Below, piece by piece: positions 22,708-46,005 of a stretch of DNA of 64,000 bases. Source of the DNA: Candidatus Omnitrophota bacterium (lineage in GTDB: Bacteria; Omnitrophota; Gorgyraeia; Gygaellales; Profunditerraquicolaceae); contig JAQUQW010000003.1 in assembly GCA_028716245.1 (NCBI GenBank), positions 84,638 through 148,637 on the forward strand, in the 5' to 3' direction. A model generated the notes under the pieces. That model saw nothing but the letters and a program-made list of their open reading frames with translations, was not told where the DNA came from and did no database searches. A program made the translations under genes and the position numbers. The stretch's first letter is position 1. The number at the start of each line of letters is the position of its first letter.

Positions 22708-22756
22708 CTTGCCCACACGGGCACACCCGCATAATTCCTTATAAGCGCGGAGTGTT
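22708..22756 (-). promoter_or_regulatory. Conserved leader/operator element (copy B) upstream of the SBP-permease-GH transcription unit
   Basis: cttgcccacacgggcacacccgcataattccttataagcgcggag. It aligns 39/45 with copy A, with the same TGCCC-N4-GGGCA palindrome immediately 5' of the RBS. Confidence 0.5.
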
Positions 22757-23652: not shown

Positions 23653-26600
23653 TCAGTCGCCGATTACGGCCGTTTTAACTGCTTCAAGATTAGTTACTGC
23701 GGGTAAGACGGGCGCGGTTGATACTGTTGAAGGAAGGACACTAAGGGTTTCTTTAATATCGCTAATAATCCGATTGAGCCGCTCCGGAGAATTTGTATTA
23801 AAAATTGCCTCGGCAATAAGCTTAAGATTTGCTGAAGCCGGATAGCTATTGTTACTGGGCTGTGCTAGAAAATCTTTGGTCTCTTTTACAATACTTTTAT
23901 TCTCTTCAATCAAATTCAGCGTAAGTATTTCTTCTATTTCTTTAAGCCCATATTTATTGGCTAATTTTGTTATTGCTTCTTTAGAAAAAGAATAATATAA
24001 TTTATTTTTAAGATTATCCAATTTGCCCAATCCTATATCCTCAATTATAAGTTTCGCGATCAACTCCGGCACGGTTTTATTAAGTTCTTTTGCAAATTTA
24101 GAAATTGCCGGCTGAGCGACCAATCTTTCATCAATAATTCCAATAATATTCTCTATCTTCTTTTCATCAATCCCGTCTACTTTTGCCTGTTTATAGAACT
24201 CCATTTTTGCTTTCTCAACAGTAAAGTCGATTTTTAAATCGGCCGTATCCATATTAATCACCTGAGCCAACCATGCCTTGAACAACGCCGGATTACCCGC
24301 GGTTTCTTTAACAAGCTTTAGGATAATCTCTTTGCCATATCCGCTATTAAAGAGCTTGTTCAAGTCGCCATTTTTGAAATTTTCGGCATTTAACCAATTT
24401 CTGATTTGCCCCTCGGATGCGGCAAGAATATCCGTTTCTTTTATCGAAACCTCTTTTATAAGATTATTCAGCGCCCCGGTTCCGCCGACTGACTCAATAT
24501 TTAAAAGGTATTCAAACAAATCGGATTTTATTTCCTTTACCTGCGCATCCTTAAGCTGAGAATATTGCGGCAGGTCGGTTAATTGTAGATTTTCCACGTC
24601 TTTGGACTTAATAAAAATATTTTGTTCTTCAAGCGCTTCTAATACTTGGGGTTTTAATATTGGGTTATTTATTAAAGACCACATATTCAATATTATGTAG
24701 GGAGCGGGAATATCTTTGCCATCCTCTAAAATCTTGTTTAAAACATCCTCTTCCTTGGCTAGAATACTCAATTTATCCGGCAGATCCGTTGAAAAATTAT
24801 TTGGATCATTTAATTGCCCGAGCAAAACATCCTGCTTGATCCTTAACTGGTCTCTGGCTATTTTAAGGAACTGATAAGGATTGGCCGATCCTCTCATTAT
24901 CTGCTCTTCAAAATTTGCCAAGAATTCCAGGAAGCGCTTACCGCGCAAGGTAAGCTCATCCTGTGTTCCTCTTACGCGTCCGTCAAATACCAGGCCCAGG
25001 GACTTAAGGGCTTCAACCGGTTGGCTTAGCCCTCTTTGAGATAAATATTTCTCTAATTGCGCAGCCGTGGCGATGTCTCCTTGCGCAATTACCCCCGCGC
25101 GCTGCCTAATCTTTTTTAAATATTCCGACTGTAAGTATTCGATATCTTTATCGGTAACTTCCGCCTGATGCCGGCTGACATCAACCAATTTTCCCGCCTC
25201 CTGCCGCAGCCGGCTTACCCCCTGCGCGTCCTGCTCTTTGTTTATCTTCTCGGATATCGCCAATACAGCTTCCTTCTTAGCTTCAGGAGAGGAAATTTTG
25301 CCTAACTCTTCTTTTTCTTTTGTGGTAATTAATCTATCTTTTCTTTCATTTACTATAACCGAAAAAGTTCCTTCGGCGCGGTTAGCTTTATTTATGCGGC
25401 CGCTAAGCTGAGTAAGCTTATCCTTAGAATCCACTCCCACCTTAATCAACGCCACTTTGTATTTGCCGTTAGGCGCGTTAAAAGTATTGACGCCCGCGCC
25501 CATACCCTGGATAATCAATATCGGCTTCTTTGACGGGTCAACTTTATTATTCTCCCTTATCTCCTCGAATTTTCTTCCCTGCAACTCGCGATTCTCCCCG
25601 GTTACAAATTCTATTTCACTGCGCGGGATAATGCCGTCATCCATTGCCTTAAGTATCCCCGCGCGCACCTCCTCCAATTTAGACGCGCTGATATCGGTAA
25701 CCGCAACCTGGGAAACTTCTTTACTTTTTATAAGCTCCACGACGTGTTTTACAGCCGCCGCCACATCAGGCAAATCCGTTGATATTACGTCTAATTTATT
25801 GATTCCATTATCCCAATCCACTTTTTCTTCCGGCGTAACTCTTACCGTGCTGACTCCCATTTCATTTAAAGTCTTGCCCTGTCCCTCAGTGGTAGCAGAG
25901 CCGAAAATTGCCTTATCTATCCCTATTTTCTTCAACAGCTCAGTGGTGGTAATACGGTCTGTAGGTTTATGTAATAAATTATCCGCCACCTGCTCATCGG
26001 TTGCGCCTTCTTTTAACGCGATAAGCCCGGCTACTTCCTGGCTGCCAAACCTGGTATTCGGCCGCTCTGTGCCGTCGCTATCGGCGATACGGTAATCCAC
26101 GTATTTGCCTTCTTTATCGCTGGTTATCCAATAATGTTTGCCTTTTTCTTTATTAAATAGCGTATCCGCGGCTAAATCTATAAGATTTGAAAACTCCTCT
26201 TTAGCCCGGCCATAACCCAAATCTTTCAATAAATCTTTATGGCTGATAGAGATACTCTCAATAATTTTTCCTCTGCTTGCCGGCTTTAACTGGTATTCCG
26301 AGCGAACCTCATGTCCGCTTAAAAGAGAACGGGTTTTGGTTATGCCTTCGATCCCATTATCATGCAAGCCCGCCTCCTTGTTGATTTCTTCATTAATCAC
26401 CCTGAGAAGTTTTACTTCTTTCATTACCAAACTCTTTGCGTTTTCATCGGTAAGCTTGGAATAAATACCTTCGCGCGGGCCTTTAATCAAATCCGCATCC
26501 ACTAAAACAAGCTGGATTTCATTGACGATTACGCCGGTTACGCCTTCTAAAATTTTCTTTTGTCGCGCACTTGCTCCCTTTTCATCCAAACCAATGCTCT

Positions 26601-28929
26601 TAGCGTCATAATTCTCCATAAGATAAATTTGGGGTTTCTGCGGCTTAAATTGACCTATCAAGACGGGCGCGTGCGCATCCTCTATTTTAAAAACGTTGCA
26701 GTCCTTTGCTAACCTTTCCACCGTAGGGTTATCTTTAAGCTGCTCTAAATTTTTGGAATCGGGGTCGATGTAAATATTTTTAATTTTGGATTCTTGATTA
26801 GCGTTTATCTTTTGGGTTATATCCAAAGCCACCTTTATTCCGCTTAGATAACCATCCATCTTCCCGCCGCTCATTTCCAGCCCCACTGCCAGGCCTTTGG
26901 TAGGCATTTCCAAATTTGATTGGGCAAGATGGACTGCTACGCTATATGTAAATGCCAGCTGGTCCGGACGGATATTAAAATTCCTGTTTTTAACAAGGCC
27001 GGCAAATTCACGCGCCACTAAATTATCTATGGTTATATCCTTGCCTACCTTACCTGCTAATATATTTTTTGTTTCCTCCGCTATTCTTTTGCCGATCGCG
27101 TTTAAATTATCTACGGTTAAAACCTCAAGTTTTATGCCAGCCAACTCGTTCCTTAAATTATCTCCTACGCCCTTTAAATTATCATCGCCGTGGATGCGCG
27201 GTAATTCAAATGGGTTTACTTCGATAGAAGAAGGCAGGGGGACGGTTTTTATATTTTCCGGAGCGGAACCTCCGGCTGTGCCGCCTGTATTTATACCTGA
27301 AAAATCGACAGGAGTAAGTTTATTTTTTACAATACCCGGCCCAAACATATTCACCGCCATCACCGCTGTTGCGCTAGCCGCTGTCCCCAAATTGCCGGTT
27401 TTTCCGCCCTCCCATAAAGCAGCCGCGGCCAATGGCAGAGTTACTACAGCCATAGTTACCGGCGCCTTATATTTTTCATACGCGGGCGGTAATGACAATA
27501 AGCTAAACTGCGTTTTAGCTGACTTTACCCCGCGCAAGGCTTCTCCGCTGCCGCCGCGCAGGATAAATAAACTACCGGCTGCCTCACCTAAGTTACGGTA
27601 ACCGGAATCGTAATCCCATCTGCCGTCAACAATTGAACCGCGGCGCAACCCTACGCCTGCTTCAAGAGGATTAGCTACAAAATCCGCAAAACCGCGCCAG
27701 CTATAACTCGGACTTGCGCCCGCGTTGGCGCCAATAGATAAACCGGTAAGCGGGCTAAAAGACCCTACGCTCTTTATAAATGCTCCGGCAAACGGAACGC
27801 CATAATTATCCAATCCTTTACTAATCGGAACAACCAGAGAATCGCTAATACCAGCCAAACCGGTAAAACCTTTTTCATACCAATTAAAACCATTGGTTAA
27901 ATTTTGGTTCTGAACATTAAGACTGGCTATTTCAGTCGCATCTGCCACTACCCGCTCATTAGTCTTAATCTTTCTCTCTTCTAAATAATTCTTAACTCCC
28001 TGCGGTGTAGCGGCTACCTCAGATAGGCCGCTGAGCATATCATCATTATATTTTCCCGGCGCAAGCAAATGCTCCTCTTGCCTGATTTCGTTCATCAGGT
28101 AACCGATTCTCCCGTTATTGTCGGCAAAAGTATTATAGGCAGGGGATTTAAGCGGAGAAAGACCATAGACTGTATTGACCAAAACCCCTGCGCCGGCAAG
28201 GCCGATATAGCTTCTTACGGCAGGATTCCCCCAAATCATATTGCTACCTTGCCAGGCATAATTAAGCCCTTGCGCTACCCGGCCGCTCCGTAATGCCCAA
28301 GAGCCGCTGTCTATTGCTAAAGAAGGCACGTATCTGGAAACCCCAGTGGTTAATAAATCGCCGGCGCTTGAAAGTACTCCTTCAGCTGCTCCACCCGGGA
28401 GGGTTATAAATGCAAAATACTGACTAAGAAACTCCTTATGCTCTCTGCCTTCGGGAGTATCCCAAAATCCCGGCTTAAATATGGTTTGGTCTATTGCCCA
28501 GTTTGCCTTATCGTAAATAGCATTTTTTATTCCGGGGAGCTGGTTAGATATTGTTTTAGTCCAATTGGTATTAGCTACTGCGATTCCCGCTTGGGGATTA
28601 TTGGTCAGTACACCAGTAACCAAGCCAGCAGTAGATTTAATGCCCTGGATATTGATATTACTAAAAGGAGAAGTAAAATTTGTTGTAGAAATGCCAGTTA
28701 CAGACTTAACTGTGTTGTAGACATTGCTTGCGGCAGTATAGGTGCTGCTGGCTTTGGAAACATAAGATTGGGCGGTAGAACTAATGCTGGATAGGCTGGA
28801 TTGAACGCTTGATTTGAGGCTGGATACGCTGGGAAGACGAGATGTAATTTCATCGGTGATACCAACGGCTAAGCATACCTGCTGCGACAGAAAAATCGCT
28901 ATTATTAATAAAGCAACTGCCTTTTTCAT
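23653..28929 (-). CDS. Giant secreted protein (1758 aa), S/T-rich N-terminal region, no recognisable catalytic domain
   Basis: It has the signal peptide MKKAVALLIIAIFLSQQVCLA and a Ser/Thr-rich low-complexity stretch (SVSSLKSSVQSSLSSISSTAQS...), then a G/A-rich and long K/E-rich helical C-terminal half. It starts 22 nt after the upstream giant gene. Confidence 0.6.
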   Translation of the reverse strand: MKKAVALLIIAIFLSQQVCLAVGITDEITSRLPSVSSLKSSVQSSLSSISSTAQSYVSKASSTYTAASNVYNTVKSVTGISTTNFTSPFSNINIQGIKSTAGLVTGVLTNNPQAGIAVANTNWTKTISNQLPGIKNAIYDKANWAIDQTIFKPGFWDTPEGREHKEFLSQYFAFITLPGGAAEGVLSSAGDLLTTGVSRYVPSLAIDSGSWALRSGRVAQGLNYAWQGSNMIWGNPAVRSYIGLAGAGVLVNTVYGLSPLKSPAYNTFADNNGRIGYLMNEIRQEEHLLAPGKYNDDMLSGLSEVAATPQGVKNYLEERKIKTNERVVADATEIASLNVQNQNLTNGFNWYEKGFTGLAGISDSLVVPISKGLDNYGVPFAGAFIKSVGSFSPLTGLSIGANAGASPSYSWRGFADFVANPLEAGVGLRRGSIVDGRWDYDSGYRNLGEAAGSLFILRGGSGEALRGVKSAKTQFSLLSLPPAYEKYKAPVTMAVVTLPLAAAALWEGGKTGNLGTAASATAVMAVNMFGPGIVKNKLTPVDFSGINTGGTAGGSAPENIKTVPLPSSIEVNPFELPRIHGDDNLKGVGDNLRNELAGIKLEVLTVDNLNAIGKRIAEETKNILAGKVGKDITIDNLVAREFAGLVKNRNFNIRPDQLAFTYSVAVHLAQSNLEMPTKGLAVGLEMSGGKMDGYLSGIKVALDITQKINANQESKIKNIYIDPDSKNLEQLKDNPTVERLAKDCNVFKIEDAHAPVLIGQFKPQKPQIYLMENYDAKSIGLDEKGASARQKKILEGVTGVIVNEIQLVLVDADLIKGPREGIYSKLTDENAKSLVMKEVKLLRVINEEINKEAGLHDNGIEGITKTRSLLSGHEVRSEYQLKPASRGKIIESISISHKDLLKDLGYGRAKEEFSNLIDLAADTLFNKEKGKHYWITSDKEGKYVDYRIADSDGTERPNTRFGSQEVAGLIALKEGATDEQVADNLLHKPTDRITTTELLKKIGIDKAIFGSATTEGQGKTLNEMGVSTVRVTPEEKVDWDNGINKLDVISTDLPDVAAAVKHVVELIKSKEVSQVAVTDISASKLEEVRAGILKAMDDGIIPRSEIEFVTGENRELQGRKFEEIRENNKVDPSKKPILIIQGMGAGVNTFNAPNGKYKVALIKVGVDSKDKLTQLSGRINKANRAEGTFSVIVNERKDRLITTKEKEELGKISSPEAKKEAVLAISEKINKEQDAQGVSRLRQEAGKLVDVSRHQAEVTDKDIEYLQSEYLKKIRQRAGVIAQGDIATAAQLEKYLSQRGLSQPVEALKSLGLVFDGRVRGTQDELTLRGKRFLEFLANFEEQIMRGSANPYQFLKIARDQLRIKQDVLLGQLNDPNNFSTDLPDKLSILAKEEDVLNKILEDGKDIPAPYIILNMWSLINNPILKPQVLEALEEQNIFIKSKDVENLQLTDLPQYSQLKDAQVKEIKSDLFEYLLNIESVGGTGALNNLIKEVSIKETDILAASEGQIRNWLNAENFKNGDLNKLFNSGYGKEIILKLVKETAGNPALFKAWLAQVINMDTADLKIDFTVEKAKMEFYKQAKVDGIDEKKIENIIGIIDERLVAQPAISKFAKELNKTVPELIAKLIIEDIGLGKLDNLKNKLYYSFSKEAITKLANKYGLKEIEEILTLNLIEENKSIVKETKDFLAQPSNNSYPASANLKLIAEAIFNTNSPERLNRIISDIKETLSVLPSTVSTAPVLPAVTNLEAVKTAVIGD

Positions 28930-28951
28930 CGGCTTTATCTCTTTTCCAAAT

Positions 28952-31900
28952 TTAATTCCTTGTCATCACTTCACCTGCAGCTGTCTCTACTTTTTCAGCT
29001 TCTTTTTCAACATCTTTGGCTTTCACCCCTGTGCTAATCGCTGCGATGAGATTCTTATCGCTGAGCGTTTCCAGAGACGCCTTATTTACAAGTAGAAAAT
29101 CCCTGACTTTTTTCGCGCTCACCTTTAATCCATTGGCGATATCAATTAGAGCTTGCGCTTTTTTCAATCCAATCATTACTAACAATTCTTTGGCTTGCAT
29201 AACTGCCAGCGCTGAACTGCCGCCTGTTGAGATATAAATCCCCTCGCCGGAGATGCCAAACTGCTCTGCCATTGCTCCGGTATCCGAACCCACTAATCCG
29301 ATATTGGCTTTGTTTTTGGCGGCTTCCAGGCAAGTCTTGCCAACCTCTTTTGAGCCAACCTCAAACTGCGGTATTTCGCTCACGCCTAGCGCGCCATTCC
29401 AAACATTCCATCTTCCGGCAGGAGTCTGAAGAATAATTTTGCTAAACTCTTCAATACTCTGTTTATAAATATCATAGATGAAAAGATTTTTAGCGATTAA
29501 TGTATCTCCTGATTCGGTATCAGCGAATGTACCCTGCTTCAACTGCTCCAGGGTTACATGATAAATCTTGGCGTTTTGGGGAATTTTCTTTAACTCAAGC
29601 CAGGATTTTTCACTGCCTTCAGCCGGTTTGGTTAAATCCATATTCACCACCACAAAATCAGAAGGCAACGCCAATTTGATGTTATATTGCTTAGACAGAT
29701 CAATAATACTCTGGGCTTGTTTAAGATCGTTCTCGCCGACCTTTGCTCCGACCTCGATATTATGCAGTGCTTTTAAGAATGGAGCAACCGGCCCGGTTCC
29801 AATCATTAGGAATCCGCCCTCCTTCATGTTCGGGATGACTTTTTGCAGCATCGGCACCTTCTCGCTGACCTTGGGGCCTCCGCCGATAATAACTCCGTGA
29901 AGATTTTGCAAAGCAAGTTGTAGATTTTTATCCTCATTTTCCATTATCAAGCCAAGGGCGATCTTTTCCACGTAGTTGGCGACTAAATCCAATGATCCGC
30001 CGGTCCTTTCCGCCGCGCCAAAGGCGTCAAAAATAAATACCTCATTATCCACTAAATCCGCCAGCCCCGCGGCAAAAGACGGATCATTTCCTTCTTCTCC
30101 TTCATAGAAACGGCTATCCTCAAGGATATTTATCGCGCCAGGAATGATTCTTTGCTTTAATCCTTTTGCTAACCCCTTAGCCGTTATGCTATTCTCATGA
30201 AACACCGCTTTATAATTGTATCCTTGCGCTTCTAAAGCTTTTTGGATTTCTACGGAAATCGGCCCCATAGAATATGCTTTATCCACTTTCCCGTCGGGCC
30301 TTCCATTATGGCTGATAACTACCACAGTCTTAGCTCCGTTTTCCAAGGGATAAACCATGGTGCGTACGGCTTCAAAGATCTTCTTTGTTGATTTAATTTC
30401 TCCCTTTGCGCCGGAAACATTAAGGTCTACACGTTCAAGGACACTTTTACCTTCAAGCTCTGCCTTACCCCAACTGCTCATATAAGGAACAGTTGCAACT
30501 TCCGTGGTTTTAATTTGTACAGGAGCGGGCGTCAAAATTTCCTTTGCCCTTCTTGCGTCAACCATCCAGGGCGCCCATCTGTGCGCAATCTGGCCAGGTG
30601 CCGCGGATTGATTATCATAGAGGCCTTTGATTATTATGGTTTTCTTGTTATTAAGCACTTGGATCATAAACCCGTCAATAATCGAAACACTAGACCATCC
30701 TACAATAGAGTTGGTATCTAAAGGAGTGCCGGCAACACCGGGTATTCCTTCATAGAACCTGACCATACCATTTGATTTATTTTTTGCAAAGTTCCTCAAC
30801 GCGTCTCTGACTTCTTTTTCAGTAACTTCTTTTTTTAGATTCATCGTGATCGTAAAGGCGCTCCCCGTGATTGCGCCAACCCGTTTAGCCGTAATCGGGA
30901 AATTACCTTCCAATTCCGGGATTATCTTAAACAGGTTCTTGGCCGCTCCGGTAGAAGCTTCCTGGATATCCTGGATTATCGAGAACCCTCTCAAAACATC
31001 CACCGGATCTCTTTCCCTGCCGCTAGGTTCAGGGAAAACAGCGTTAGAAGCGGTCTGCGCATGAACCGTCTCACCAGAACCTGACTCAACGCCAAAAGCT
31101 TCATGCGCAGCGACAATCGCAGAAATCATGGCATTAGAAGTACAAGATAAAGTATCTACTGCCCAGGTATTCGAAGTCACCTTATCTCTGTTAAAAGAAA
31201 ATAATGCTTCCTTGAAAGCAATTTTAGGATTCAAACCCGCTGCCTTAAGCCCGACTTTTATTCCGTCTTTATTCACCGGAGAAGCGCAGGCTACCGGCAA
31301 CCCCATCTGTATGAATTCTTTGATACGCAACGCCTGATAAGTGCCGCCTTTACCGCCTCCTTCATCTTTACCCGGGCCATATTCCGCGACTACATCCGGG
31401 CCGATTCCTAATTGCCTCATTATTCCCACTGCGTCTTTATTGCTTATTTCCGGGCCAAAATAAAGAATGCGCATTTCCGGCCGGCCTGAATTTTTATCTT
31501 CAGGAACAATAATAGTATCTATCTTCTTCCCATCTACATTTACAGGCTCACCGAGATGTAAGCCGGCGACTTGATATCGCGCGAACACTCCGCCGGAATA
31601 AAAATTCTGCCGAACAAATGCCGCAGCATTAAGTTGTTTAGCTCCTTTGAGTGTTTTTATGGCAACGATGTTTTGCCCCGGTTCCCATTCATTTAGCCAT
31701 GAATTAAACGCGCCTTCCGAAAAAATAACCGCGTTGCCGGCGCTGACAAAGATATTTGTCGGTTTCAAAGCAATGGCTAATTTCCTATCCAAGTCATCAT
31801 TCTTGAACAAATCCGCTTTGGCAATGCCTTTTAACGCAGCCAACTGCTCAGCGCTTAAACGATGGACTATCTTTCTTATCCGGCTAAACGTCTCGGTTTC

Positions 31901-33433: not shown

Positions 33434-33453
33434 TTTTCTTCCTCCTTATAAAA

Positions 33454-40257: not shown

Positions 40258-40301
40258 GCGCTAATTAATTATGAGGACAAAAAACTGTTGATTATATGTT
40301 T

Positions 40302-40327
40302 GTAACCGGGGACGGGAAATTCCCGTC
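40302..40327. terminator. GC-rich hairpin ggggacggg-aaatt-cccgtcccc followed by ATTTTT (between the 1279-aa and 2267-aa giant genes)
   Basis: It shares the ccggggacg arm start with the nrdJ terminator palindrome at 7476. It has plus-oriented terminator geometry although the flanking genes are on the minus strand, so it may act bidirectionally or as an mRNA-processing/attenuation hairpin. Confidence 0.4.
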
Positions 40328-40348
40328 CCCGATTTTTCCTTAAATGAA

Positions 40349-43300
40349 TTAAATTGCAACTACAGCCGCGACTTCTGCTTTATATTCTTCAACTGCATTT
40401 GCAATAGAAGGTATTACCGCATTAGATTTAACTGTAAAACTGCCCTTTGCATCTTGAGCGAATAATGCATCCAATGCCGTCAATTTATCATTGGTTAACG
40501 TACCCTCTGAAATGAGATTTAACGCTAGTTTCAATGCCTTAGCCATTGAAACTGTCTGTCCTTTTTCTTTTGTTTCCCCAAGTACGATCATATTCTCAGA
40601 AGAACCCTTGAACTGTTCAATATAGCCCTGAGAACCAATTACGACATAAATACCCGTGCCGAATTTCTCGTTTACAACGTTAACTACATTCGCGGGATTT
40701 TTGCCTACCACAATACTGGCGAACATATCCCGGTTTAAGTTAGTGAAATCTCCATTGATATCATTTACTTTCGCAAAGAACTTATCCACCAACTTATTCG
40801 CTTCTTCAGCACTTATTTTACTAGGAACATCGATAATAAACTTAATGTTGTTTTTGCTAAGCTCGCCTTTCTTAAGAAACTTTCCCTGCTTTTCAAGAAG
40901 TTGTTTAAGCACGTTTTCCAAAGCCATAACCCCATCAGGGCCTGATTCAACAAGAGCGGCATAGTTTATAACTACTGGGATGGCCTTATCACCACGCGTA
41001 TTTTTTTCCACAACAGCATCAGGGACATTAACGTCGATATCATCTGAGAATGCATCCATAATCGGCACCGCCGGGCCATACTTAACTAATTTAGAAACTT
41101 TGGCCCCGCCCTTAAAGGAAACTTTCTCTAAATACCTTTTACCGAAAAGAAGCTCTAAAACATCGGCAATTGTAGAGTTTTCATCCCCGCCTATCTCACC
41201 TACCTCAGTCTCGACTCCGCTGTCTTGGTGTATTAATGTTGCCAAAAACGCGCTAACCAATGCGTTTAACCTCATTGGCATAAATGAAGCATCTAAAGCA
41301 AATTCGGTAAAACCAGCTGCAACTTCCACCTCAACTAATTTATACGCCTTTTCAATTGCTTTAAGCGCGCCTAATACATTCTTTTGAGTTTGAGTAGGAT
41401 TGGATAACTCTTTTAATTCCTTAACTTTACTTGCAAAAATCGCTTTTCTCTGAACAATATCTTTTTCTTTTAAAATATTATTAAGAAGCTTGGCAACTTC
41501 TTCTTGGGCTTCCTTATCCTTCAAAAACTCCTTATCCGCTTTTACGGTTACATGGTCTCCTTTGATAATGAAATTTTTAAACCCAAGCGCTTTAGTTCTT
41601 GCTTTTATCAATTCAGCAAACTTTTTAGGATTGTCGAACGAAAAACCGCCCGCATAGGTATAATCCAATTCGCTCATTGCCTGCTGGAATATAACAAAGC
41701 TCTTTGTGTTGATTGCCGCTTTAATAATTCCATCTATACTCAAAGGCGTTCGAATATTATCAGCCATAATGATGCGATCTGTGTCTTTTAATGCGTCCAA
41801 AACAATACGCCCCGGATAAGAGGCGCCTTCCGGCACTATAAAAGGCTCGGGTTTGACAGAATCAATAATGCCGCCATTATTATCGACTAATCTGGTTTCA
41901 AACCAAGCGCAGGGCTTCCCGTTTACCACACCTAAACGCAAAAAATTGATTTTACTTCCTTGCTCTCCAATTTCTACGCCATCTGTTCTGAATACGCCAT
42001 TATTGCTGATAAATGCCATAGATCCACGAATACTGGCATCTATATCGCTATGCATATACAATACTTTACCGGCAATAATATCCTTCCATTCTTCGGGATA
42101 GGCTTTCTTTATGGCGTCTATTTCACTTTCTTGCTCCCCTTCTTTTGGTTTGTCGCTAAAAGCGTACCTGCGTTTTAAATCCTTTGCATCTTTACCATCC
42201 GAAGCCTTATTTACATTCTCAGAAACTAACCGATTAAAGACAAGCGCGCCTAATGCCTTAAATCCACTGCCTATGGCGCGAATATATTCTCCTTCCGGAG
42301 CGCCGACTAAAGTCATCATAACTTTATGTTTCTCTCTTGTTTTAATACCAAGGATGGCATCGATACCATGCGCTACCGTTCCGTCTTTGATAGTCGTAAG
42401 CGTTAATCCTTTATATTTTTCCTGCAATTGCTTTATTGCGGCTATTCTTGCTGTTTCTCTGGGCCTATCCATTATTACAACTTCTAAGTCGCCAATGGTT
42501 TTCCCGTTAGCTTTTGCAATCCTATCCAGCATTGCTTCTATTTTATTAATATCACCATCCGCGGTTAACTCCGGGTCTAATGGATTAGCAATAAATTCTA
42601 TCAACTTCTCAGGAGGCACCCGGGTAACAACCTGATCTATATAAGCATCTAAGGTATTACGCATAAATCTTTTAACACCGGGCCCATAAAGCATAATGCT
42701 GGTTGCCCCAGATTCTTTTTCTTTTAAATCTGCTGTTGCTTTTCCATATACATTAGCAACAAACGCGTTTGTTCCCTCGATTACATCCATAATCCCATAT
42801 TCTATTCTAAACTTCTCTCCGCTTGTTGATGTATATTCATCTAAACCATCCTCTATCGCGGCTTTAATAATCGCTGCTTCTTCCGCCTTAAGGCTTTCCG
42901 GGATTATAACATCGCCTGCCTTAAAGCTGGCTTTTAGCGCATCCCTGCCAAATCCTTCACTTACACGCGCTATTAAAATAATTTTTTCACGATTCACTAT
43001 TTCTTGGAATATTGCTTTTGCCGCTCCATCTGCTTCATCTTTAATAAGGTTTATTTGATTTTTAAGAGCATCTGTTTCATCTTTTTTTGTTTTAATTATT
43101 AATTCGTTATTTCCCGCCTTTTCTAGTTCTTTTACTTCCTTTTCCAAAGCTTCTTTCTTTATTACTAAATCTAGCGCTTTCCCACGTAAACCTTTTACAG
43201 TTAAAACAGCAGCGGTTGCGCCTGTGATCTGAAGAGAAAAATCATCTACTAAGGGCTTAAGCGGCTCATATCCTATTTTAAATACCGAACTTTTTCGAAC

Positions 43301-44188
43301 CGGAACAACAAGGCCGGATTTTAAATAATCATTCACTAAAGCATCCGTTCCCGCGCTGCCAAAAGCGATCATGTGTTCAGTAGCACTTTTTTCTGTAGCT
43401 ATATCAATTTTTTCTTTTACATCGGGAGGTAAATTTTCCCACTCTTGACTATATTTACCTATGAGATTCTTTAGCTCTTTACCAATAAGTCTTTCTAAAT
43501 TCTTTTGGCTAGCTCCTTCTCTCTGGGTAACATCGTATTTCTTACCGTAAGTTTTTATCAAATCATCGATCATCCTATTGACTAAATTTTGCAGTTCAGG
43601 GTGAGTTGTCTTTGCTTCCTGAATTATAACTTCCCATGCTATATTCTGCCAATTAGTTCCCACATGGCCAATCCTCATCCCTACTTTTCTAAGGGACGGA
43701 ATGTTTGGAATCGGTGTGCCGGTTATGCCATGCTGAACTACAAGTATTCCATAATAAGCAAGAATACGAGAAATAGCATCAGTACCCGGTAAATTCATCT
43801 TTGTTTCTATTAAATTGCCGTCTGCATCATAATTATTACCGTGCGCGGTGCCATTGTTCAGGGCTAATAAATAAGGCAAAGGATTCAATTCCTGTGCTGT
43901 TAATAAAGCAAAAAGCCCTTCGGAAGGTTCTTTCGTAACAATTAAGTCGCCTTTTCCAACTCCGGTTTTTATCGCGTTTTTTATAGCAAAAATTTGTTCC
44001 GCGTCTGCTGTGGTCGTAGGATTAGTTTTAGCTGAGTTATTTCTTAAATTAAACGTAGAAACCACGCCTGCGGTAGCAATGTTGCTAAAAACAAAAGTTA
44101 CTGTAACTACCAATGAAACTAACCTATACCACATCTTTTTATTTAATTGCCCTAACATTTTCCTTCCTCCTGTTTTCTTAATTTTCAT
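40349..44188 (-). CDS. Giant secreted multi-domain protein (1279 aa) with class-II aldolase-like (C-terminal half) and GlpX-type fructose-1,6-bisphosphatase-like domains
   Basis: The signal/anchor is MKIKKTGGRKMLGQLNKKMWYRLVSLVVTVTFVFSNIATA. The aldolase-like region carries NNGTAHGNNY (cf. GTSHGAYK) and ILVVQHGITGTPIPN..LRKVGMRIGHVGTNWQ (cf. PLVLHGGSG.P.E.I..AI..GV.KINIDT..Q). The GlpX-like region carries MDVIEGTNAF (cf. VDPIDGT), VVIMDRPRETARIAAIKQL..LTLTTIKDGTVAHGI (cf. ILDRPRH..LI..IR..GA.V.LI.DGDVA.AI) and MTLVGAPEGEYIRAIGSGFKALGALVFNRL (cf. G.GGAPEGV..AAA.RCLGG..QGRL). Confidence 0.6.
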   Translation of the reverse strand: MKIKKTGGRKMLGQLNKKMWYRLVSLVVTVTFVFSNIATAGVVSTFNLRNNSAKTNPTTTADAEQIFAIKNAIKTGVGKGDLIVTKEPSEGLFALLTAQELNPLPYLLALNNGTAHGNNYDADGNLIETKMNLPGTDAISRILAYYGILVVQHGITGTPIPNIPSLRKVGMRIGHVGTNWQNIAWEVIIQEAKTTHPELQNLVNRMIDDLIKTYGKKYDVTQREGASQKNLERLIGKELKNLIGKYSQEWENLPPDVKEKIDIATEKSATEHMIAFGSAGTDALVNDYLKSGLVVPVRKSSVFKIGYEPLKPLVDDFSLQITGATAAVLTVKGLRGKALDLVIKKEALEKEVKELEKAGNNELIIKTKKDETDALKNQINLIKDEADGAAKAIFQEIVNREKIILIARVSEGFGRDALKASFKAGDVIIPESLKAEEAAIIKAAIEDGLDEYTSTSGEKFRIEYGIMDVIEGTNAFVANVYGKATADLKEKESGATSIMLYGPGVKRFMRNTLDAYIDQVVTRVPPEKLIEFIANPLDPELTADGDINKIEAMLDRIAKANGKTIGDLEVVIMDRPRETARIAAIKQLQEKYKGLTLTTIKDGTVAHGIDAILGIKTREKHKVMMTLVGAPEGEYIRAIGSGFKALGALVFNRLVSENVNKASDGKDAKDLKRRYAFSDKPKEGEQESEIDAIKKAYPEEWKDIIAGKVLYMHSDIDASIRGSMAFISNNGVFRTDGVEIGEQGSKINFLRLGVVNGKPCAWFETRLVDNNGGIIDSVKPEPFIVPEGASYPGRIVLDALKDTDRIIMADNIRTPLSIDGIIKAAINTKSFVIFQQAMSELDYTYAGGFSFDNPKKFAELIKARTKALGFKNFIIKGDHVTVKADKEFLKDKEAQEEVAKLLNNILKEKDIVQRKAIFASKVKELKELSNPTQTQKNVLGALKAIEKAYKLVEVEVAAGFTEFALDASFMPMRLNALVSAFLATLIHQDSGVETEVGEIGGDENSTIADVLELLFGKRYLEKVSFKGGAKVSKLVKYGPAVPIMDAFSDDIDVNVPDAVVEKNTRGDKAIPVVINYAALVESGPDGVMALENVLKQLLEKQGKFLKKGELSKNNIKFIIDVPSKISAEEANKLVDKFFAKVNDINGDFTNLNRDMFASIVVGKNPANVVNVVNEKFGTGIYVVIGSQGYIEQFKGSSENMIVLGETKEKGQTVSMAKALKLALNLISEGTLTNDKLTALDALFAQDAKGSFTVKSNAVIPSIANAVEEYKAEVAAVVAI
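42100..42900 (-). other. GlpX (class II FBPase / F/SBPase)-like domain inside the 1279-aa protein
   Basis: The DRPRE..I..DG(T/D)VA..I and GAPEG signatures sit in the correct order and spacing. The metal-site DxxDGT is present as DVIEGT (Asp to Glu). Confidence 0.55.
43600..43970 (-). other. Class-II fructose-bisphosphate-aldolase-like C-terminal half (degenerate/truncated)
   Basis: The GT.HG.Y and hhhQHG..G.P motifs are present, but no upstream DHG/EAELG half is visible. Confidence 0.4.
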
Positions 44189-44192
44189 TTAT

Positions 44193-45788
44193 TTATTCCT
44201 CATCACTGCCATTTGTACCGCTGTTACCTTTATCTATATTCTCGCTCTGCAGGTTTTTCTTTTCGCTTCTTAAGACGGAAAGATAAACGCTGGAGTCGGT
44301 TTTCTTAGTGATTGTCGGGGTGACTACCGCGTAGGAATAGCCTTTTTCTTTAAACATCTGCGTCATACCGGGCGTGTGAAACCCGCCGGCGATAAATACC
44401 GCTATTTTTTCTCCGGATTCATCCATTTTCTTGACAATGTTCTTAATAAACGCCTGCTCGCGGTCAGAACCCAATTTATAAAATTCCTCAAATTTACTCA
44501 TGTTCTCATCGATTACCCCGGAGGCCGACGGCCGCAGCGCTAAATTGTATTTGGCGCAGTTATCGCTTAAGAAACTTAACCAGGAACCGGTTGACATATC
44601 CGCCCGGTTTGCCTTAAAATATCCGTAATCTTCGGGGGTCAACTCTAAACTGACAACACCTTTAAGCACATCAAGCGCTTTTGAAATTTCATACAATTTT
44701 TTCTGGTCGGCGTTGGCGAAAAGCTCCTCTTTTATTTTCTCTTCCAAAGAACCGACTTCTTTTAAGAGCTGGGCGACATCTATTTTTTTGTTTTCGTTTA
44801 TGTAGCGGATATAGGCGGCCAACTGGGGATAATTTTGTTCAAGGTTGATTCTTTTCTTTGCCGCCAGGTCTTTCAAAAATGAATAATATTCCCCGGAGGT
44901 GATATTTCCAGCCTTAAAATCCTGGCTCTTGTCAACTACAGTTTTTACCTGCTTTTCATTGAGCAGGCTGGCTAAGCTCTTGATAAACTCATTCCTTTGG
45001 GCTTCCGCTTCCTTAAAATCAACCTCTTTTTCCATCCGGGCAAGCTCCGCGAAAGCGCTTAAAAAAGGATAGCTTTGAAGGTCAAAACCTTTATTACTGG
45101 CAATATTTTTAAGATAGCCGCAGTATTCCCCCAAAGATAAAGTTTTATCCTCATAGTTTTTCTTGGCGCTCTCTAAATATTTTACTTCTTCGCTGTAGAT
45201 CTTTGGCTTTAAAGCGTTGACAACTTTGGCTAAATCCTCTAAGTATTTTAAACTTTCGTCCCTAAGGGCATCTACTTTATGAAAAACATCCAAATGCGCC
45301 TCATACAAGGCTTCATCTTCTATCCCGTAAAGGTCAAGAGGATAATCGGCAACAATGTCCAAATACTCTTCGCCTGAGATTTTTCCCAGCTTCAGGTATT
45401 TATCCGCCACGCCTTCCCGGGCTTTTTTATCAGCGTAGTTGCGCAAAAACTCAAGGTTGACATTTCCGCTGCCGCCTTCAACCATGATCAATTTAAGATT
45501 TTGCTCCTTGGCCAGATAATCCAACAACTGCGCCATATTTTTCTGGGCTTCATAATTACAATGGGCATCCTGGATATGGATAATCGTCTTACCTAAATTA
45601 GAATTCTGCGTATTGACAGGTGTAGTGTCCTGGCTATCAAACACCTCTTTGATGTTTCCGAATATGGAGGGAATATTGATGGTTTTTACTAATGAGGTTG
45701 GGCTTGCTAAGCTAATTCCAAAGAAGAAAAAGAATTGGATCGCTAAGAATATTAGAATTTTTCCGCGATGAGGCTTATTTTCCAACAT
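44193..45788 (-). CDS. TraB/GumN/Tiki-superfamily-like secreted protein (first gene of the giant-protein operon)
   Basis: 531 aa with a signal peptide (ILIFLAIQFFFFFGISLASP). The N-terminal TIIHIQDAHCNYE motif (cf. GTMHV..) and the C-terminal VFIAGGFHTPGMTQMFKEKGYSYAVV (cf. VGAGHL.G..G....L...GY.V) match the two conserved motif regions of the TraB/GumN family. The assignment is tentative. Confidence 0.4.
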   Translation of the reverse strand: MLENKPHRGKILIFLAIQFFFFFGISLASPTSLVKTINIPSIFGNIKEVFDSQDTTPVNTQNSNLGKTIIHIQDAHCNYEAQKNMAQLLDYLAKEQNLKLIMVEGGSGNVNLEFLRNYADKKAREGVADKYLKLGKISGEEYLDIVADYPLDLYGIEDEALYEAHLDVFHKVDALRDESLKYLEDLAKVVNALKPKIYSEEVKYLESAKKNYEDKTLSLGEYCGYLKNIASNKGFDLQSYPFLSAFAELARMEKEVDFKEAEAQRNEFIKSLASLLNEKQVKTVVDKSQDFKAGNITSGEYYSFLKDLAAKKRINLEQNYPQLAAYIRYINENKKIDVAQLLKEVGSLEEKIKEELFANADQKKLYEISKALDVLKGVVSLELTPEDYGYFKANRADMSTGSWLSFLSDNCAKYNLALRPSASGVIDENMSKFEEFYKLGSDREQAFIKNIVKKMDESGEKIAVFIAGGFHTPGMTQMFKEKGYSYAVVTPTITKKTDSSVYLSVLRSEKKNLQSENIDKGNSGTNGSDEE

Positions 45789-45825
45789 TTTCTCCTTCCT
45801 TTCTCGCGGCCGGCAACAAATAAGA

Positions 45826-45902
45826 CAGCCGCGATTTTTTTAATTGAGCTAACAACTCCGGCGAAAAGCCGGAGTTGTTAGCTCAATTAAAAACCGTGGC
45901 TG
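45826..45902. repeat. 77-nt near-perfect inverted repeat (23-bp perfect core arms) in the 5' leader of the giant-protein operon
   Basis: cagccgcg-atttttt-ttaattgagctaacaactccggc-gaaaa-gccggagttgttagctcaattaa-aaaa-ccgtggctg. Confidence 0.6.
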
Positions 45903-45977
45903 TCTTTAATTACCTAACTAGAAAATTATAAGCTTCAGAAAAACTTTTAAAAACTATTTCTCTCAGATTCGTTGTAA

Positions 45978-46005
45978 AGTATACAATATTTAAAAGCCTT
46001 GTCAA
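45978..46005 (-). promoter_or_regulatory. Candidate sigma70 promoter (TTGACA-N16-TATACT, minus strand) for the TraB-like/giant-protein operon
   Basis: -35 is the revcomp of 46000-46005 and -10 the revcomp of 45978-45983. It predicts a ~180-nt leader containing the 45826-45902 palindrome. Confidence 0.35.

What the first reader, a model, noticed from the sequence alone, without database searches (positions are those of the whole stretch)
23653..45788. Operon of giant signal-peptide proteins built from glycolysis/gluconeogenesis/Calvin-cycle enzyme-like domains
Five tightly packed minus-strand genes have gaps of 4, 91, 20 and 22 nt. They encode a TraB/GumN-like protein followed by four giant proteins of 1279, 2267, 1493 and 1758 aa, each with an N-terminal signal peptide or anchor. 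Three of the four embed clear homologues of central carbon enzymes. These are a class-II FBA-like half plus a GlpX-type FBPase (1279 aa), a complete PEPS/PPDK module with the catalytic His (2267 aa), and TPI, GAPDH and PGK domains in pathway order (1493 aa). The catalytic Cys/His of GAPDH, the phospho-His of PEPS and the PGK substrate motifs are retained, arguing against decayed pseudo-domains. The GlpX metal site and the aldolase half look divergent. No described system is known to combine exported or membrane-anchored, K/E-rich giant scaffolds with five or six consecutive sugar-phosphate enzymes. Possibilities are a surface- or prey-directed metabolic module, a membrane-tethered metabolon, or enzymes repurposed as binding domains.
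Basis: partly seen in the sequence, partly recalled or inferred. Interest (0 to 1): 0.95.

Follow-up and report, generated by a model that had tools for sequence, protein, structure and literature searches.

The report
Leader-tagged glycolytic enzyme giants, Omnitrophota
An uncultured Omnitrophota bacterium carries a conserved operon of very large proteins built from intact-looking but highly divergent copies of sugar-breakdown enzymes, each starting with an export-type leader; this puzzling feature of the phylum's giant-protein loci has been noted briefly in two preprints, and its purpose is still unknown.

Summary
Five minus-strand ORFs with gaps of 4, 91, 20 and 22 nt encode 531, 1279, 2267, 1493 and 1758 aa. 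Profile, PDB and structure searches recover FBA-II + GlpX, a three-domain PEP synthase/PPDK, and TPI + GAPDH + PGK. Catalytic residues are present here and invariant across divergent relatives.

The claim that no such system is described is wrong. The window is from an Omnitrophota MAG. The operon sits exactly where that phylum's giant (Archaeovorin / multi-enzyme) genes sit: after a 5868-aa SecA-like ORF, and before PilZ, a sugar ABC importer and GH2. West-Roberts 2023 already lists TPI, FBPase, FBA and PPDK domains in such giants, predicted extracellular.

New here:
- This is a split, sub-giant version, conserved in over 30 assemblies.
- 52 of 56 such proteins carry a family-specific leader (Sec-like, then DxLRPxAA, often KDGG).
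- The aldolase is a circularly permuted barrel with GlpX nested inside.
- The PGK is only about 31% identical to any canonical PGK, while other Omnitrophota MAGs hold normal gap-pgk-tpiA operons.

Most likely this is an accessory set of active enzymes targeted out of the cytoplasm, not housekeeping glycolysis. Localisation and purpose remain inferred.

The parts
46337..63943 (-). g0. A 5868-aa giant ORF of the same locus. It has a protein-kinase-like domain (aa 1118-1278), an M48 peptidase (about aa 3341-3500) and a SecA-like motor (SecA_DEAD, SecA_PP_bind, P-loop_SecA; aa 5041-5624). It has several TM segments and no N-terminal leader.
   Evidence: Pfam. Hydropathy. 20 DGG motifs against 1.35 expected.
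45978..46005 (-). Sigma-70-like promoter match, TTGACA-16-TATACT (11 of 12), about 190 nt upstream of g1.
   Evidence: This is a consensus match only.
45822..45906 (-). Near-perfect hairpin of about 40 bp in the g1 leader RNA, within the g0-g1 spacer.
   Evidence: MFE -75 kcal/mol for the 172-nt stretch, z = -8.5. Coordinates. No Rfam family matched.
44193..45788 (-). g1. A 531-aa protein with an N-terminal anchor or signal (aa 11-29). It has invariant QDAHCN, EGG and GGFH motifs and is a possible Tiki/TraB/ChaN-superfamily hydrolase.
   Evidence: At least 175 relatives in JGI metagenomes.
40349..44188 (-). g2. A 1279-aa protein: leader (aa 1-42), class-II FBA C-terminal part (aa 106-225), GlpX-type FBPase (about aa 400-675), FBA N-terminal part (about aa 800-1010), and C-terminal domain CTD-B (aa 1020-1279).
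40307..40331 (.). GC-rich 11-bp-stem hairpin in the 91-nt g2-g3 spacer. There is no U-tract on the coding (minus) strand.
33454..40257 (-). g3. A 2267-aa protein: leader with AADKLRPEA, PEPS/PPDK ATP-grasp domain (aa 257-648), phospho-His swivel domain (aa 1027-1091, His1052), PEP/pyruvate domain (aa 1378-1579; Arg1386, Glu1462, Asn1499/Asp1500, Cys1576), and a conserved unannotated tail.
   Evidence: 56% identity over the full length to the L002 and L006 proteins.
28952..33433 (-). g4. A 1493-aa protein: leader (..RSYA|ALGTVDKLRAP), TPI with a helical insertion of about 110 aa (aa 60-450), GAPDH (aa 540-970; Cys764, His791, Arg851; no GxGxxG), and PGK (aa 991-1415).
23653..28929 (-). g5. A 1758-aa Omnitrophota-specific protein with a signal-like leader. 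Its S/T/G-rich N-terminal region has 3 weakly hydrophobic segments. Relatives carry a C39 peptidase or SF2-type Walker A/DEVD motifs that g5 lacks.
   Evidence: The AF2 model is unusable, pLDDT 38.
22861..23556 (-). PilZ (c-di-GMP receptor) gene. It lies directly downstream of the operon in all related loci.
17362..22724 (-). Sugar ABC importer (solute-binding lipoprotein and two permeases) and a secreted GH2/TPR protein, syntenic with the operon.
9980..13177 (-). LacI-family regulator, a 303-aa ORF of unknown function, and a ROK-family (sugar kinase or regulator) gene, at the distal end of the carbohydrate locus.

Best explanation
What it is. This is the distal part of an Omnitrophota 'giant-gene' locus of the Archaeovorin / multi-enzyme type. 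Here the giant polypeptide is divided into six ORFs totalling 13,196 aa. g0 carries a SecA-like motor, a kinase and an M48 peptidase. It is followed by g1 to g5, which appear to be transcribed from their own promoter.

The enzymes. g2 to g4 are catalytically competent but very divergent paralogues. They are a permuted FBA with a nested FBPase, a PEP synthase/PPDK, and TPI-GAPDH-PGK. Together they can interconvert pyruvate/PEP and, separately, 3-phosphoglycerate up to fructose-6-phosphate. Enolase and mutase are missing here, though enolase is present in sister loci.

The leader. Each protein starts with a family-specific leader: a K/R-rich n-region, an h-region of about 18-20 aa, (G)YA, then DxLRPxAA. 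Relatives often add KDGG.

What is shown: homology, invariant active-site residues, the leader, the conserved operon, and fusion and splitting of the same modules between lineages.

What is inferred:
1. They are an accessory set, not the cell's housekeeping glycolysis.
2. The leader takes them across, or anchors them in, the inner membrane through Sec. The SecA-like module of the giant and trimming by the Tiki-like g1 may assist.
3. They work with the giant protein at the envelope or prey interface, on phosphorylated intermediates and nucleotides released from attached prey. This would supply hexose to the co-encoded GH2 and ABC importer under PilZ/c-di-GMP control.
For: Organism and locus type:
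- NCBI names the proteins as 'Candidatus Omnitrophica bacterium'.
- g0 has SecA_DEAD, PP_bind and P-loop_SecA.
- The genes downstream are PilZ, SBP, two permeases and GH2, exactly as the literature describes downstream of giant genes.

Enzyme identity and competence:
- Pfam, PDB and AF2/Foldseek searches agree.
- Catalytic residues are invariant across relatives of about 30-55% identity. TIM His/Glu is kept in 13/13, GAPDH Cys/His/Arg in 11/11, PGK His/Arg/Arg/Lys in 9/9, and PEPS His in 14/14.

Leader:
- 52 of 56 complete module-bearing ORFs have a hydrophobic leader. 46 have LR, with D at -2 in 28/46 and P at +2 in 26/46.
- The leaders end like the window's own porin signal peptide (..SYA|).
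- g2 to g4 have no further TM segments.

Operon conservation and Rosetta-stone fusions:
- Synteny holds across many loci.
- One ORF in L123 joins FBA, GPI, GAPDH and PPDK.
- g1-like modules are fused into ORFs of 2-3.8 kaa in more distant lineages.

Accessory status:
- The embedded PGK is only 29-33% identical to any canonical PGK.
- Canonical gap-pgk-tpiA-secG operons occur in at least 8 Omnitrophota MAGs. Those PGKs are 52-57% identical to Clostridia PGKs.
- Nielsen & Lui report strict KO hits for GAPDH, PGK and enolase in 176/176 complete genomes.
Against: - PGK, PEPS and GAPDH need ADP/ATP, Pi and NAD(P). No source of these is known in a periplasm or outside a cell.
- No export has been demonstrated. 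SignalP and DeepTMHMM were not available.
- West-Roberts themselves doubt the extracellular prediction.
- Topology read from hydropathy puts g0's own SecA ATPase on the 'wrong' side. Such predictions are therefore unreliable for this protein class.
- A canonical gap-pgk-tpi operon was not shown in this same genome.
- The window set lacks enolase and phosphoglycerate mutase, so it is not a continuous pathway.
- The GAPDH dinucleotide-binding motif is absent.
Confidence: 0.5

Rival explanations
1. Cytoplasmic, membrane-tethered glycolytic/gluconeogenic metabolon. The leader is an uncleaved anchor, or a docking tag bound by the giant's SecA-like preprotein-binding domain. It keeps the enzymes on the cytoplasmic face, next to the sugar importer and ROK kinase. 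There they channel imported sugar, possibly as the main glycolysis of the cell.
For: - All the enzymes, and g0's kinase and SecA ATPase, need cytoplasmic cofactors.
- Catalytic residues are under purifying selection.
- The operon is invariably linked to a sugar ABC importer. In this window it is also linked to ROK and LacI genes.
- Sister loci together supply GPI, PFK, FBA, TPI, GAPDH, PGK, enolase and PPDK. That is nearly the whole EMP pathway.
- The leader is far more conserved than ordinary Sec signals. This suggests a dedicated partner.
Against: - The positive-inside rule argues against it. The n-regions are strongly basic, giving an N-in, C-out orientation.
- The c-regions look like SPase I sites, identical in style to the porin's.
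- Canonical gap-pgk-tpiA operons exist in the phylum.
- The embedded enzymes are unusually divergent for housekeeping genes.
Confidence: 0.27
2. Pseudoenzymes. The enzyme folds are kept only as sugar-phosphate or nucleotide-binding, or structural, modules of a surface scaffold, without catalysis.
For: - Sequence divergence is very high. The TIM Pfam score is 33 bits and phmmer finds no PDB TPI.
- GAPDH lacks GxGxxG, and its N-domain is not recognised by a profile search.
- There are large insertions, and the aldolase is permuted.
Against: - Every catalytic residue checked is invariant across the family. This includes the GAPDH nucleophile Cys, the PEPS phospho-His, the TIM His/Glu and the PGK Lys/Arg set.
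- The phosphate-gripper motifs are also kept.
Confidence: 0.08
3. Artefact. The ORFs would be a mis-assembled or frameshifted single giant gene, or a chimeric contig.
For: In other genomes the same modules occur inside single, longer ORFs.
Against: - Each ORF has its own start codon and leader. Purine-rich, Shine-Dalgarno-like spacers are evident before g1 and g4.
- The same split order recurs in independent NCBI, JGI and Logan assemblies.
Confidence: 0.02

Closest known systems
Archaeovorin-type giant proteins of Omnitrophota (West-Roberts et al. 2023, bioRxiv 10.1101/2023.11.21.568195). Type protein: the 39,678-aa ORF of Ca. Velamenicoccus archaeovorus.
   Same: - Same phylum.
- A SecA-like DEAD and preprotein-binding module on the giant.
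- TPI, FBPase, FBA and PPDK-type domains predicted to lie outside the membrane.
- PilZ, then a solute-binding protein, permeases and glycosyl hydrolases downstream.
   Different: - The polypeptide here is split into six ORFs of 0.5-5.9 kaa, far below the >30-kaa class studied.
- Each enzyme protein has its own leader.
- GAPDH and PGK are not in the preprint's list.
- No GT, HEAT, NUDIX or methyltransferase domains were found in g0.
- There is no C39 or S8 peptidase in the window. It has M48 and a Tiki-like g1 instead.
'Multi-enzyme metabolic cluster' class of Omnitrophota long proteins (Nielsen & Lui 2026, bioRxiv 10.64898/2026.06.07.730766).
   Same: - Many distinct metabolic Pfam domains tile one polypeptide.
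- 94% of those proteins have TM helices or signal peptides.
- GH2 genes flank them.
   Different: - That catalogue covers proteins of 10 kaa or more.
- Its sugar module is centred on starch synthase, GT1, PGM/PMM, ROK and hexokinase.
- Text searches of the preprint found no mention of phosphoglycerate or triosephosphate enzyme domains, or of polyprotein cleavage sites, in the long proteins.
Natural fusions of glycolytic enzymes: PGK-TIM of Thermotoga maritima (own knowledge) and TPI-GAPDH of stramenopile mitochondria (PMC3527533, listed).
   Same: Consecutive triose-stage enzymes joined in one chain. In stramenopiles the fusion has an N-terminal targeting peptide that relocates the pathway to another compartment.
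   Different: - Those fusions are two enzymes of normal sequence, and they are the cell's working copies.
- Here three enzymes are joined, with large insertions and about 30% identity to canonical forms.
- They carry a bacterial Sec-type leader and belong to a giant-protein locus.
Canonical bacterial gap-pgk-tpiA-secG operon.
   Same: The same three enzyme families, in the same order GAPDH-PGK-TPI or a permutation of it. The operon is present in other Omnitrophota MAGs.
   Different: The canonical products are 350, 393 and 246 aa, have no leader, carry GxGxxG (for example MAVKIGINGFGRIGR in L165), and are 52-57% identical to Clostridia and other non-Omnitrophota bacterial PGKs.

Membership tests
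Omnitrophota giant-gene locus (Archaeovorin / multi-enzyme type) | Encoded in an Omnitrophota genome | tested here: met
   The exact proteins are named 'MAG... [Candidatus Omnitrophica bacterium]' at NCBI. All close homologues that carry a source name are labelled Omnitrophota.
Omnitrophota giant-gene locus (Archaeovorin / multi-enzyme type) | A single ORF of giant size (at least 10 kaa; the Archaeovorins studied were >30 kaa) | tested here: not met
   The largest ORF is 5868 aa. The six ORFs sum to 13,196 aa.
Omnitrophota giant-gene locus (Archaeovorin / multi-enzyme type) | Divergent SecA DEAD and preprotein-binding domains on the giant, without the SecA scaffold/wing | tested here: met
   SecA_DEAD 4e-69, SecA_PP_bind 2e-13 and P-loop_SecA 2e-40 in g0. 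There was no SecA scaffold/wing hit at E <= 0.01.
Omnitrophota giant-gene locus (Archaeovorin / multi-enzyme type) | PilZ immediately downstream, then a solute-binding protein, permeases and glycosyl hydrolases | tested here: met
   The same order is seen in L002, L004, L005, L007 and L008.
Omnitrophota giant-gene locus (Archaeovorin / multi-enzyme type) | Type II/IV secretion-like gene cluster upstream of the giant | not testable with these tools
   g0 starts at 63943 and the window ends at 64000.
Omnitrophota giant-gene locus (Archaeovorin / multi-enzyme type) | Glycosyltransferase, methyltransferase, NUDIX and HEAT content; a C39 or S8 peptidase near the N-terminus | tested here: not met
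   None was found in g0 to g5 at E <= 0.01. Only a g5 relative (P0029) carries C39.
Triosephosphate isomerase | TIM-barrel fold with catalytic Asn/Lys, His and Glu, and the phosphate-binding YGGS-type loop | tested here: met
   NFK, GHS, NEP and YGASV motifs. His111 and Glu267 are kept in 13/13 relatives. The AF2 model has pLDDT 80 and its top 50 PDB matches are all TPI. It carries a helical insertion of about 110 aa.
Glyceraldehyde-3-phosphate dehydrogenase | Catalytic Cys/His in the C-domain | tested here: met
   SCTSN, TVHAQT, STGAAK and Arg851. These are kept in 11/11 relatives.
Glyceraldehyde-3-phosphate dehydrogenase | N-terminal Rossmann domain with GxGxxG and Asp32 for NAD | tested here: not met
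   The sequence reads IFVSAGNAVIF and VAIK. The profile search aligns only from GAPDH residue 106 onward at the earliest. The ASPV (SAP) motif is kept.
Phosphoglycerate kinase | Both domains present, with the 3PG basic patch and nucleotide-site Lys and Gly motifs | tested here: met
   Pfam covers positions 4-379 of 379, E 3e-63. RVDLNV, SHNGRP, DSRF..ER and GGGPKVSEK motifs. Key residues are kept in 9/9 relatives. There is an insertion of about 75 aa.
PEP synthase / pyruvate phosphate dikinase | ATP-grasp, swivel phospho-His and PEP/pyruvate domains with their catalytic residues | tested here: met
   Whether the enzyme is water- or phosphate-dependent was not determined. The best PDB hits are PEP synthases.
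Class II fructose-bisphosphate aldolase | Contiguous (beta/alpha)8 barrel with Asp-His, His and His Zn/catalytic residues | tested here: inconclusive
   The DH (KGDHV), AHG, VQHG and E..GG..E motifs are present, but in permuted order with GlpX between them. No structural model was made.
GlpX-type FBPase | Metal-binding DPxDGT, GEGE and GGxPEG motifs | tested here: inconclusive
   DVIEGT (Asp to Glu), SEGFGRD and GAPEGE, read by eye. The Pfam match covers profile positions 136-252 only.
Sec (SPase I) signal peptide | Basic n-region, hydrophobic h-region, and small residues at -3/-1 | tested here: inconclusive
   All three features are visible and resemble the window's porin signal. No trained predictor and no experiment was available.
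Tiki / TraB / GumN / ChaN superfamily (g1) | Paired GxxH motifs with a conserved Glu; profile match | tested here: inconclusive
   QDAH76, E104 and GGFH471 are invariant. Only 5 of 33 members hit PF04187, best E 0.008. The PDB profile search gave nothing relevant.

The most novel reading that the evidence does not exclude
A dedicated leader (basic n-region, h-region, GYA, DxLRPxAA, KDGG) sends a whole set of catalytically active glycolytic/gluconeogenic enzymes out of the predator's cytoplasm. They would operate in the prey cell or in a predator-prey junction, where ATP, NAD and sugar phosphates are available. This would be 'metabolism in trans': prey metabolites are converted into sugars or energy that the predator imports. 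The periodic KDGG motifs would be the long-sought processing sites of the giant polyproteins.
Probability: 0.25. Interest if true: 0.92.

Novelty: new variant of a known kind. Interest (0 to 1): 0.6.

Why it matters
- If these enzymes are active outside the cytoplasm, central carbon metabolism would be used as a secreted or injected tool in bacterial predation. No textbook precedent exists for that.
- If they are tethered inside, this would be a natural membrane-bound glycolytic metabolon.
- Either way, the split operon offers proteins of 1.3-2.3 kaa instead of more than 30 kaa. The open questions about Omnitrophota giant proteins (are the enzyme modules active, are they exported, where are they cut) could therefore be tested by ordinary cloning, reporter fusions and enzyme assays.
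- The conserved leader and the KDGG motif give concrete sequence handles for re-analysing the existing V. archaeovorus proteomes.

Tried and rejected
- AlphaFold2 on g5 aa 540-1500 with 8 sequences gave pLDDT 38, so it was not used for fold search.
- g1 and g2 could not be modelled with deep alignments, because locus-derived sequences are not accepted by the structure tool.
- Single-sequence phmmer of the g4 TIM region against the PDB found nothing. This was resolved later by the structure model.
- The profile of the GAPDH module did not recover the NAD domain.
- The profile of 33 g1 homologues against the PDB gave only weak EF-hand-like noise.
- The Rfam gathering scan of the whole window gave no family.
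- The test for canonical glycolytic genes in the same genome failed.
  - The genome scan with a canonical Omnitrophota PGK returned other MAGs only.
  - The NCBI contig itself was not returned.
  - A look-up of the top canonical PGK hit led to a contig with sporulation-type genes, whose other copies include a human-gut metagenome.
- The Kizina et al. 2022 paper (PMC9004380) is not held.
- CTD-A against CTD-B by hhalign gave probability 10%, so homology is left open.
- No PilZ remnant was found in the 548-nt g0-g1 spacer.
- The idea that g3's tail duplicates the PEP-binding domain was rejected (self-BLAST E 0.005 over 41 aa).
- No enolase, GPI or CTD-A was found in the window proteins.

Full report
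**1. Observation**

The minus strand of 23653-45788 holds five ORFs of 531, 1279, 2267, 1493 and 1758 aa. I call them g1 to g5. The intergenic gaps are 4, 91, 20 and 22 nt, as reported.

Pfam finds the following, all above gathering scores:
- class-II aldolase and GlpX FBPase in g2;
- PPDK_N (9e-54), the swivel domain and PEP-utilizers_C in g3;
- TIM, Gp_dh_C and PGK (3e-63, full length) in g4.

g1 and g5 have no significant family. Directly upstream, on the same strand and outside the reported coordinates, lies a 5868-aa ORF (g0, 46337-63943). It carries a protein-kinase-like domain, an M48 peptidase and a SecA-like module made of SecA_DEAD, SecA_PP_bind and P-loop_SecA.

Downstream follow a PilZ protein, a sugar-type ABC importer (solute-binding lipoprotein and two permeases), a GH2/TPR protein, further secreted proteins, a ROK protein and a LacI regulator. 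Ordinary housekeeping genes come after these.

**2. Organism and prior description**

g4 and g5 are identical to NCBI proteins of a 'Candidatus Omnitrophica bacterium' MAG, on a 151,874-bp contig.

West-Roberts et al. 2023 describe giant (>30 kaa) Omnitrophota 'Archaeovorins'. Their account includes:
- divergent SecA DEAD and preprotein-binding domains;
- many TM helices;
- 'less common' domains homologous to TPI, GPI, FBPase, PGM/PMM and FBA, plus frequent PPDK domains, predicted extracellular (a prediction the authors themselves doubt);
- pilZ genes immediately downstream, followed by solute-binding proteins, permeases and glycosyl hydrolases.

Nielsen & Lui 2026 add a 'multi-enzyme metabolic cluster' class of proteins of at least 10 kaa, 94% of which have TM helices or signal peptides.

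The window therefore shows a known, poorly understood kind of locus.

**3. Are the enzyme modules real and competent?**

*GAPDH.* It aligns to solved GAPDHs at E 1e-20, with SCTSN (Cys764), TVHAQT (His791), STGAAK and Arg851. The N-terminal half keeps the SAP-like ASPV motif. It has no GxGxxG, and a family profile does not recognise it.

*PGK.* It aligns over both domains (E 2e-40). RVDLNV, SHNGRP, DSRF, an Arg in GAAER, GGGPKVSEK, WNGALGV and a C-domain insertion of about 75 aa are all visible.

*TIM.* It was invisible to single-sequence PDB search, but the sequence shows NFK, GHS, NEP and YGASV. An AlphaFold2 model built with 19 family sequences reached pLDDT 80 and pTM 0.75. Its 50 best PDB matches are all triosephosphate isomerases. 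A helical insertion follows the catalytic His.

*PEPS/PPDK (g3).* It keeps the GGK, RSS, AGQxDT and WxSxF...R..YR motifs of the ATP-grasp domain. It also keeps the TCH phospho-His (His1052) and, in the PEP domain, Arg1386, Glu1462, Asn1499/Asp1500 and Cys1576.

*FBA and GlpX (g2).* The aldolase is not a 'half'. Profile positions 167-276 lie at aa 106-225 (AHG, VQHG). Positions 87-145 lie at aa 950-1007, preceded by KGDHV. GlpX (DVIEGT, GAPEGE) sits between the two parts. Relatives have either the two aldolase parts adjacent in the same permuted order, or the canonical order. I read g2 as a circularly permuted barrel with a nested FBPase. This is inferred and has not been modelled.

*Conservation across relatives.* Non-identical homologous modules were collected from 87 related loci. 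The catalytic residues are invariant while overall identity is about 30-55%:
- TIM His/Glu 13/13;
- GAPDH Cys/His/Thr/Arg 11/11;
- PGK His1042, Arg1108, Arg1143 and Lys1188 9/9;
- PEPS His 14/14;
- PEP-domain Arg/Glu/Asn/Asp 9/9.

This is the pattern expected of working enzymes, not of binding-only relics.

**4. The leader**

Each of g1 to g5 has one strong N-terminal hydrophobic segment after a basic start. g2 to g4 have no other TM-like segment, even at a lax threshold. The c-regions (..KQAYA|AADK..RSYA|ALGT) look like the window's own porin signal (..FSYA|SEVD).

Of 56 module-bearing ORFs with complete N-termini in related loci, 52 have such a leader. One of the four exceptions is a canonical, leaderless GAPDH.

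The leader is much more conserved than generic Sec signals. It commonly starts MFxQFxKKxLFxK. After the h-region and (G)YA comes D-x-L-R-P-x-[AS]-A. In 46 anchored leaders, D at -2 occurs in 28, P at +2 in 26, and A or S at +4 in 38. In many relatives (K/R)DGG follows 8 to 40 residues later.

The window's copies read AADKLRPEAF (g3), VDKLRAPVV (g4) and TFNLRNNSA (g2), and have lost DGG.

By the positive-inside rule, the bulk of each protein should be outside the cytoplasmic membrane. That is a sequence-based inference only.

**5. Conservation, splitting and fusion**

The operon is conserved in NCBI, JGI and Logan assemblies in this order:
1. giant ORF;
2. PilZ, in some loci;
3. g1;
4. an FBA(+PFK/GAPDH), DeoC or GlpX giant;
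5. a PPDK giant;
6. an enolase/GPI protein, in some loci;
7. a TIM/PGK protein, with GAPDH or enolase in some loci;
8. g5 or a shorter unknown protein;
9. PilZ, SBP, two permeases and GH2/TPR.

g3 is 56% identical over its whole length to 2.6-kaa proteins of L002 and L006. g1 is 55-57% identical to neighbours in L001 and L004.

Modules are shuffled between lineages:
- one 3298-aa ORF joins FBA, GPI, GAPDH and PPDK (L123);
- PPDK and PGK are joined in L113 and L114;
- g1-like modules form part of ORFs of 2-3.8 kaa in more distant loci.

Such Rosetta-stone fusions argue that the parts work together. They also argue that the window is a naturally split version of a longer protein, not an assembly error. 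An independent Logan contig encodes the identical g4.

Elsewhere, nearly all these enzyme giants end in a shared C-terminal domain of about 190 aa (CTD-A). It is absent from the window. g2 instead ends in another domain (CTD-B), shared with P0002.

**6. Relation to housekeeping glycolysis**

The embedded PGK is 29-33% identical to every canonical PGK found, including an Omnitrophota one. That canonical PGK sits in a normal gap-pgk-tpiA-secG operon. It has 56-92% identical counterparts in at least 8 Omnitrophota-labelled MAGs, and it is 52-57% identical to Clostridia and other non-Omnitrophota bacterial PGKs.

Nielsen & Lui report strict-threshold KO hits for GAPDH, PGK and enolase in 176/176 complete genomes. 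The very divergent g4 GAPDH would be unlikely to produce such hits (my inference).

So the phylum has ordinary cytoplasmic enzymes, and the leader-tagged ones form a separate, old and fast-evolving paralogue family. I could not show both sets in this same genome. That remains the most important untested point.

**7. The other genes**

*g1.* It has an N-terminal anchor and invariant QDAHCN, EGG and GGFH motifs across 33 homologues. Five of these hit the Tiki-superfamily ChaN family weakly, best E 0.008. 'TraB/GumN-like' is thus plausible but unproven. A Tiki-like N-terminal trimming protease acting on the conserved DxLRP...DGG propeptide is an attractive but speculative role.

*g5.* It is Omnitrophota-specific. 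Its aa 21-172 are 48% identical to the segment that follows a C39 peptidase domain in P0029. More distant relatives carry GTGKT and DEVD (SF2-type) motifs that g5 lacks. Its model was unusable.

*g0.* It has 20 DGG tripeptides against 1.35 expected. DGG is the most enriched tripeptide, usually as K-D-G-G-(A/S), spaced 100-325 aa apart. Giants upstream of g1 in L103, L115, L121 and L123 show 10- to 26-fold enrichment. In relatives of g4, DGG sits at module boundaries. C39 peptidases cut after Gly-Gly (own knowledge), and the preprint states that cleavage points are unknown. KDGG is therefore a candidate linker or processing site.

*Regulatory signals.* A near-consensus promoter (46005-45978) and a hairpin of about 40 bp (45822-45906, z = -8.5) precede g1.

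**8. Mechanism**

The best-supported reading is an accessory set of active sugar-phosphate enzymes belonging to the giant-protein apparatus. They would be targeted to or across the inner membrane by a dedicated Sec-type leader. They would act with the giant, the GH2 enzymes and the ABC importer, under PilZ/c-di-GMP control, on material from prey.

The window's set is FBA, FBPase, PEPS, TPI, GAPDH and PGK, which leans gluconeogenic. Sister loci carry PFK, GPI and enolase instead or in addition.

The weak step is cofactor supply outside the cytoplasm. It is only satisfied if the enzymes meet prey cytoplasm.

The main rival is a cytoplasmic-face metabolon, anchored or docked through the leader. 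It solves the cofactor problem and fits the importer/ROK linkage. It conflicts with the charge distribution and the cleavage-site-like c-regions, and it leaves the canonical operons unexplained.

Binding-only pseudoenzymes and artefacts are unlikely.

**9. Verdict**

The locus is a new variant of a known kind: split, sub-giant and leader-tagged, with GAPDH/PGK and a permuted aldolase. It is biologically puzzling and experimentally tractable, but it is not categorically new.

Noticed in passing
window 46337-63943 (g0); also L103, L115, L121, L123 upstream giants: The tripeptide DGG, usually as K-D-G-G-(A/S), occurs 20 times in g0 against 1.35 expected. It is the most enriched tripeptide there and is spaced 100-325 aa apart. 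Related giants show 10- to 26-fold enrichment. In g4 relatives it sits at module boundaries. It is a candidate linker or double-glycine processing site of the polyprotein. g1 to g5 of the window have none.
   Followed up: partly
N-termini of g2, g3 and g4 (window 44063-44188, 40108-40257, 33329-33433) and 52 ORFs of L001-L162: A family-specific leader: MFxQFxKKxLFxK, an h-region, (G)YA, then D-x-L-R-P-x-[AS]-A. It is far more conserved than ordinary Sec signal peptides, which suggests a dedicated recognition or processing partner.
   Followed up: partly
window 45822-45906 and 45978-46005: A near-consensus sigma-70-like promoter (11 of 12), followed by a near-perfect hairpin of about 40 bp (z = -8.5) in the 5' leader of g1. 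No Rfam family matched. It could be an attenuator, a stabiliser or a repeat element.
   Followed up: partly
window 40307-40331: A GC-rich hairpin with an 11-bp stem in the g2-g3 spacer. The T-run lies only on the non-coding strand.
   Followed up: no
window 41159-43873 (g2): The class-II aldolase appears circularly permuted (barrel part beta6-8 first, beta1-5 last), with the GlpX FBPase nested between the parts. Relatives show both the permuted-adjacent and the canonical order.
   Followed up: partly
C-termini of proteins in L001-L008 and L101-L126, and P0003-P0020; window 40352-41131: A shared C-terminal domain of about 190 aa (CTD-A, often ending ..EFMDKV) caps nearly all enzyme giants in other genomes, but it is absent from the window. 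g2 ends in a different domain (CTD-B), shared with P0002. Their function is unknown. They could be docking or sorting domains.
   Followed up: partly
L135-L175 (for example L136, L140, L142, L174): g1-like modules are part of ORFs of 2-3.8 kaa in more distant lineages. More than 175 relatives exist in JGI metagenomes, so this unannotated family is widespread.
   Followed up: partly
L004 and L005 (both GCA_040961635.1): One MAG carries two paralogous copies of the whole enzyme-giant, PilZ and ABC importer locus. One copy has an archaeal-type GAPDH (SCNTT). Either this is a real duplication or the bin is mixed.
   Followed up: no
window 1-64000: GC content falls from about 44-46% in the housekeeping part to 35-39% across g0, with 39-45% across g1 to g5. 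GC skew is uniformly negative, because all genes lie on the minus strand.
   Followed up: no
L165 8645-9694: A canonical, leaderless GAPDH (MAVKIGINGFGRIGR) lies directly upstream of a 1071-aa g1-like ORF. This is the only case seen of a housekeeping-type glycolytic gene next to a component of the system.
   Followed up: no
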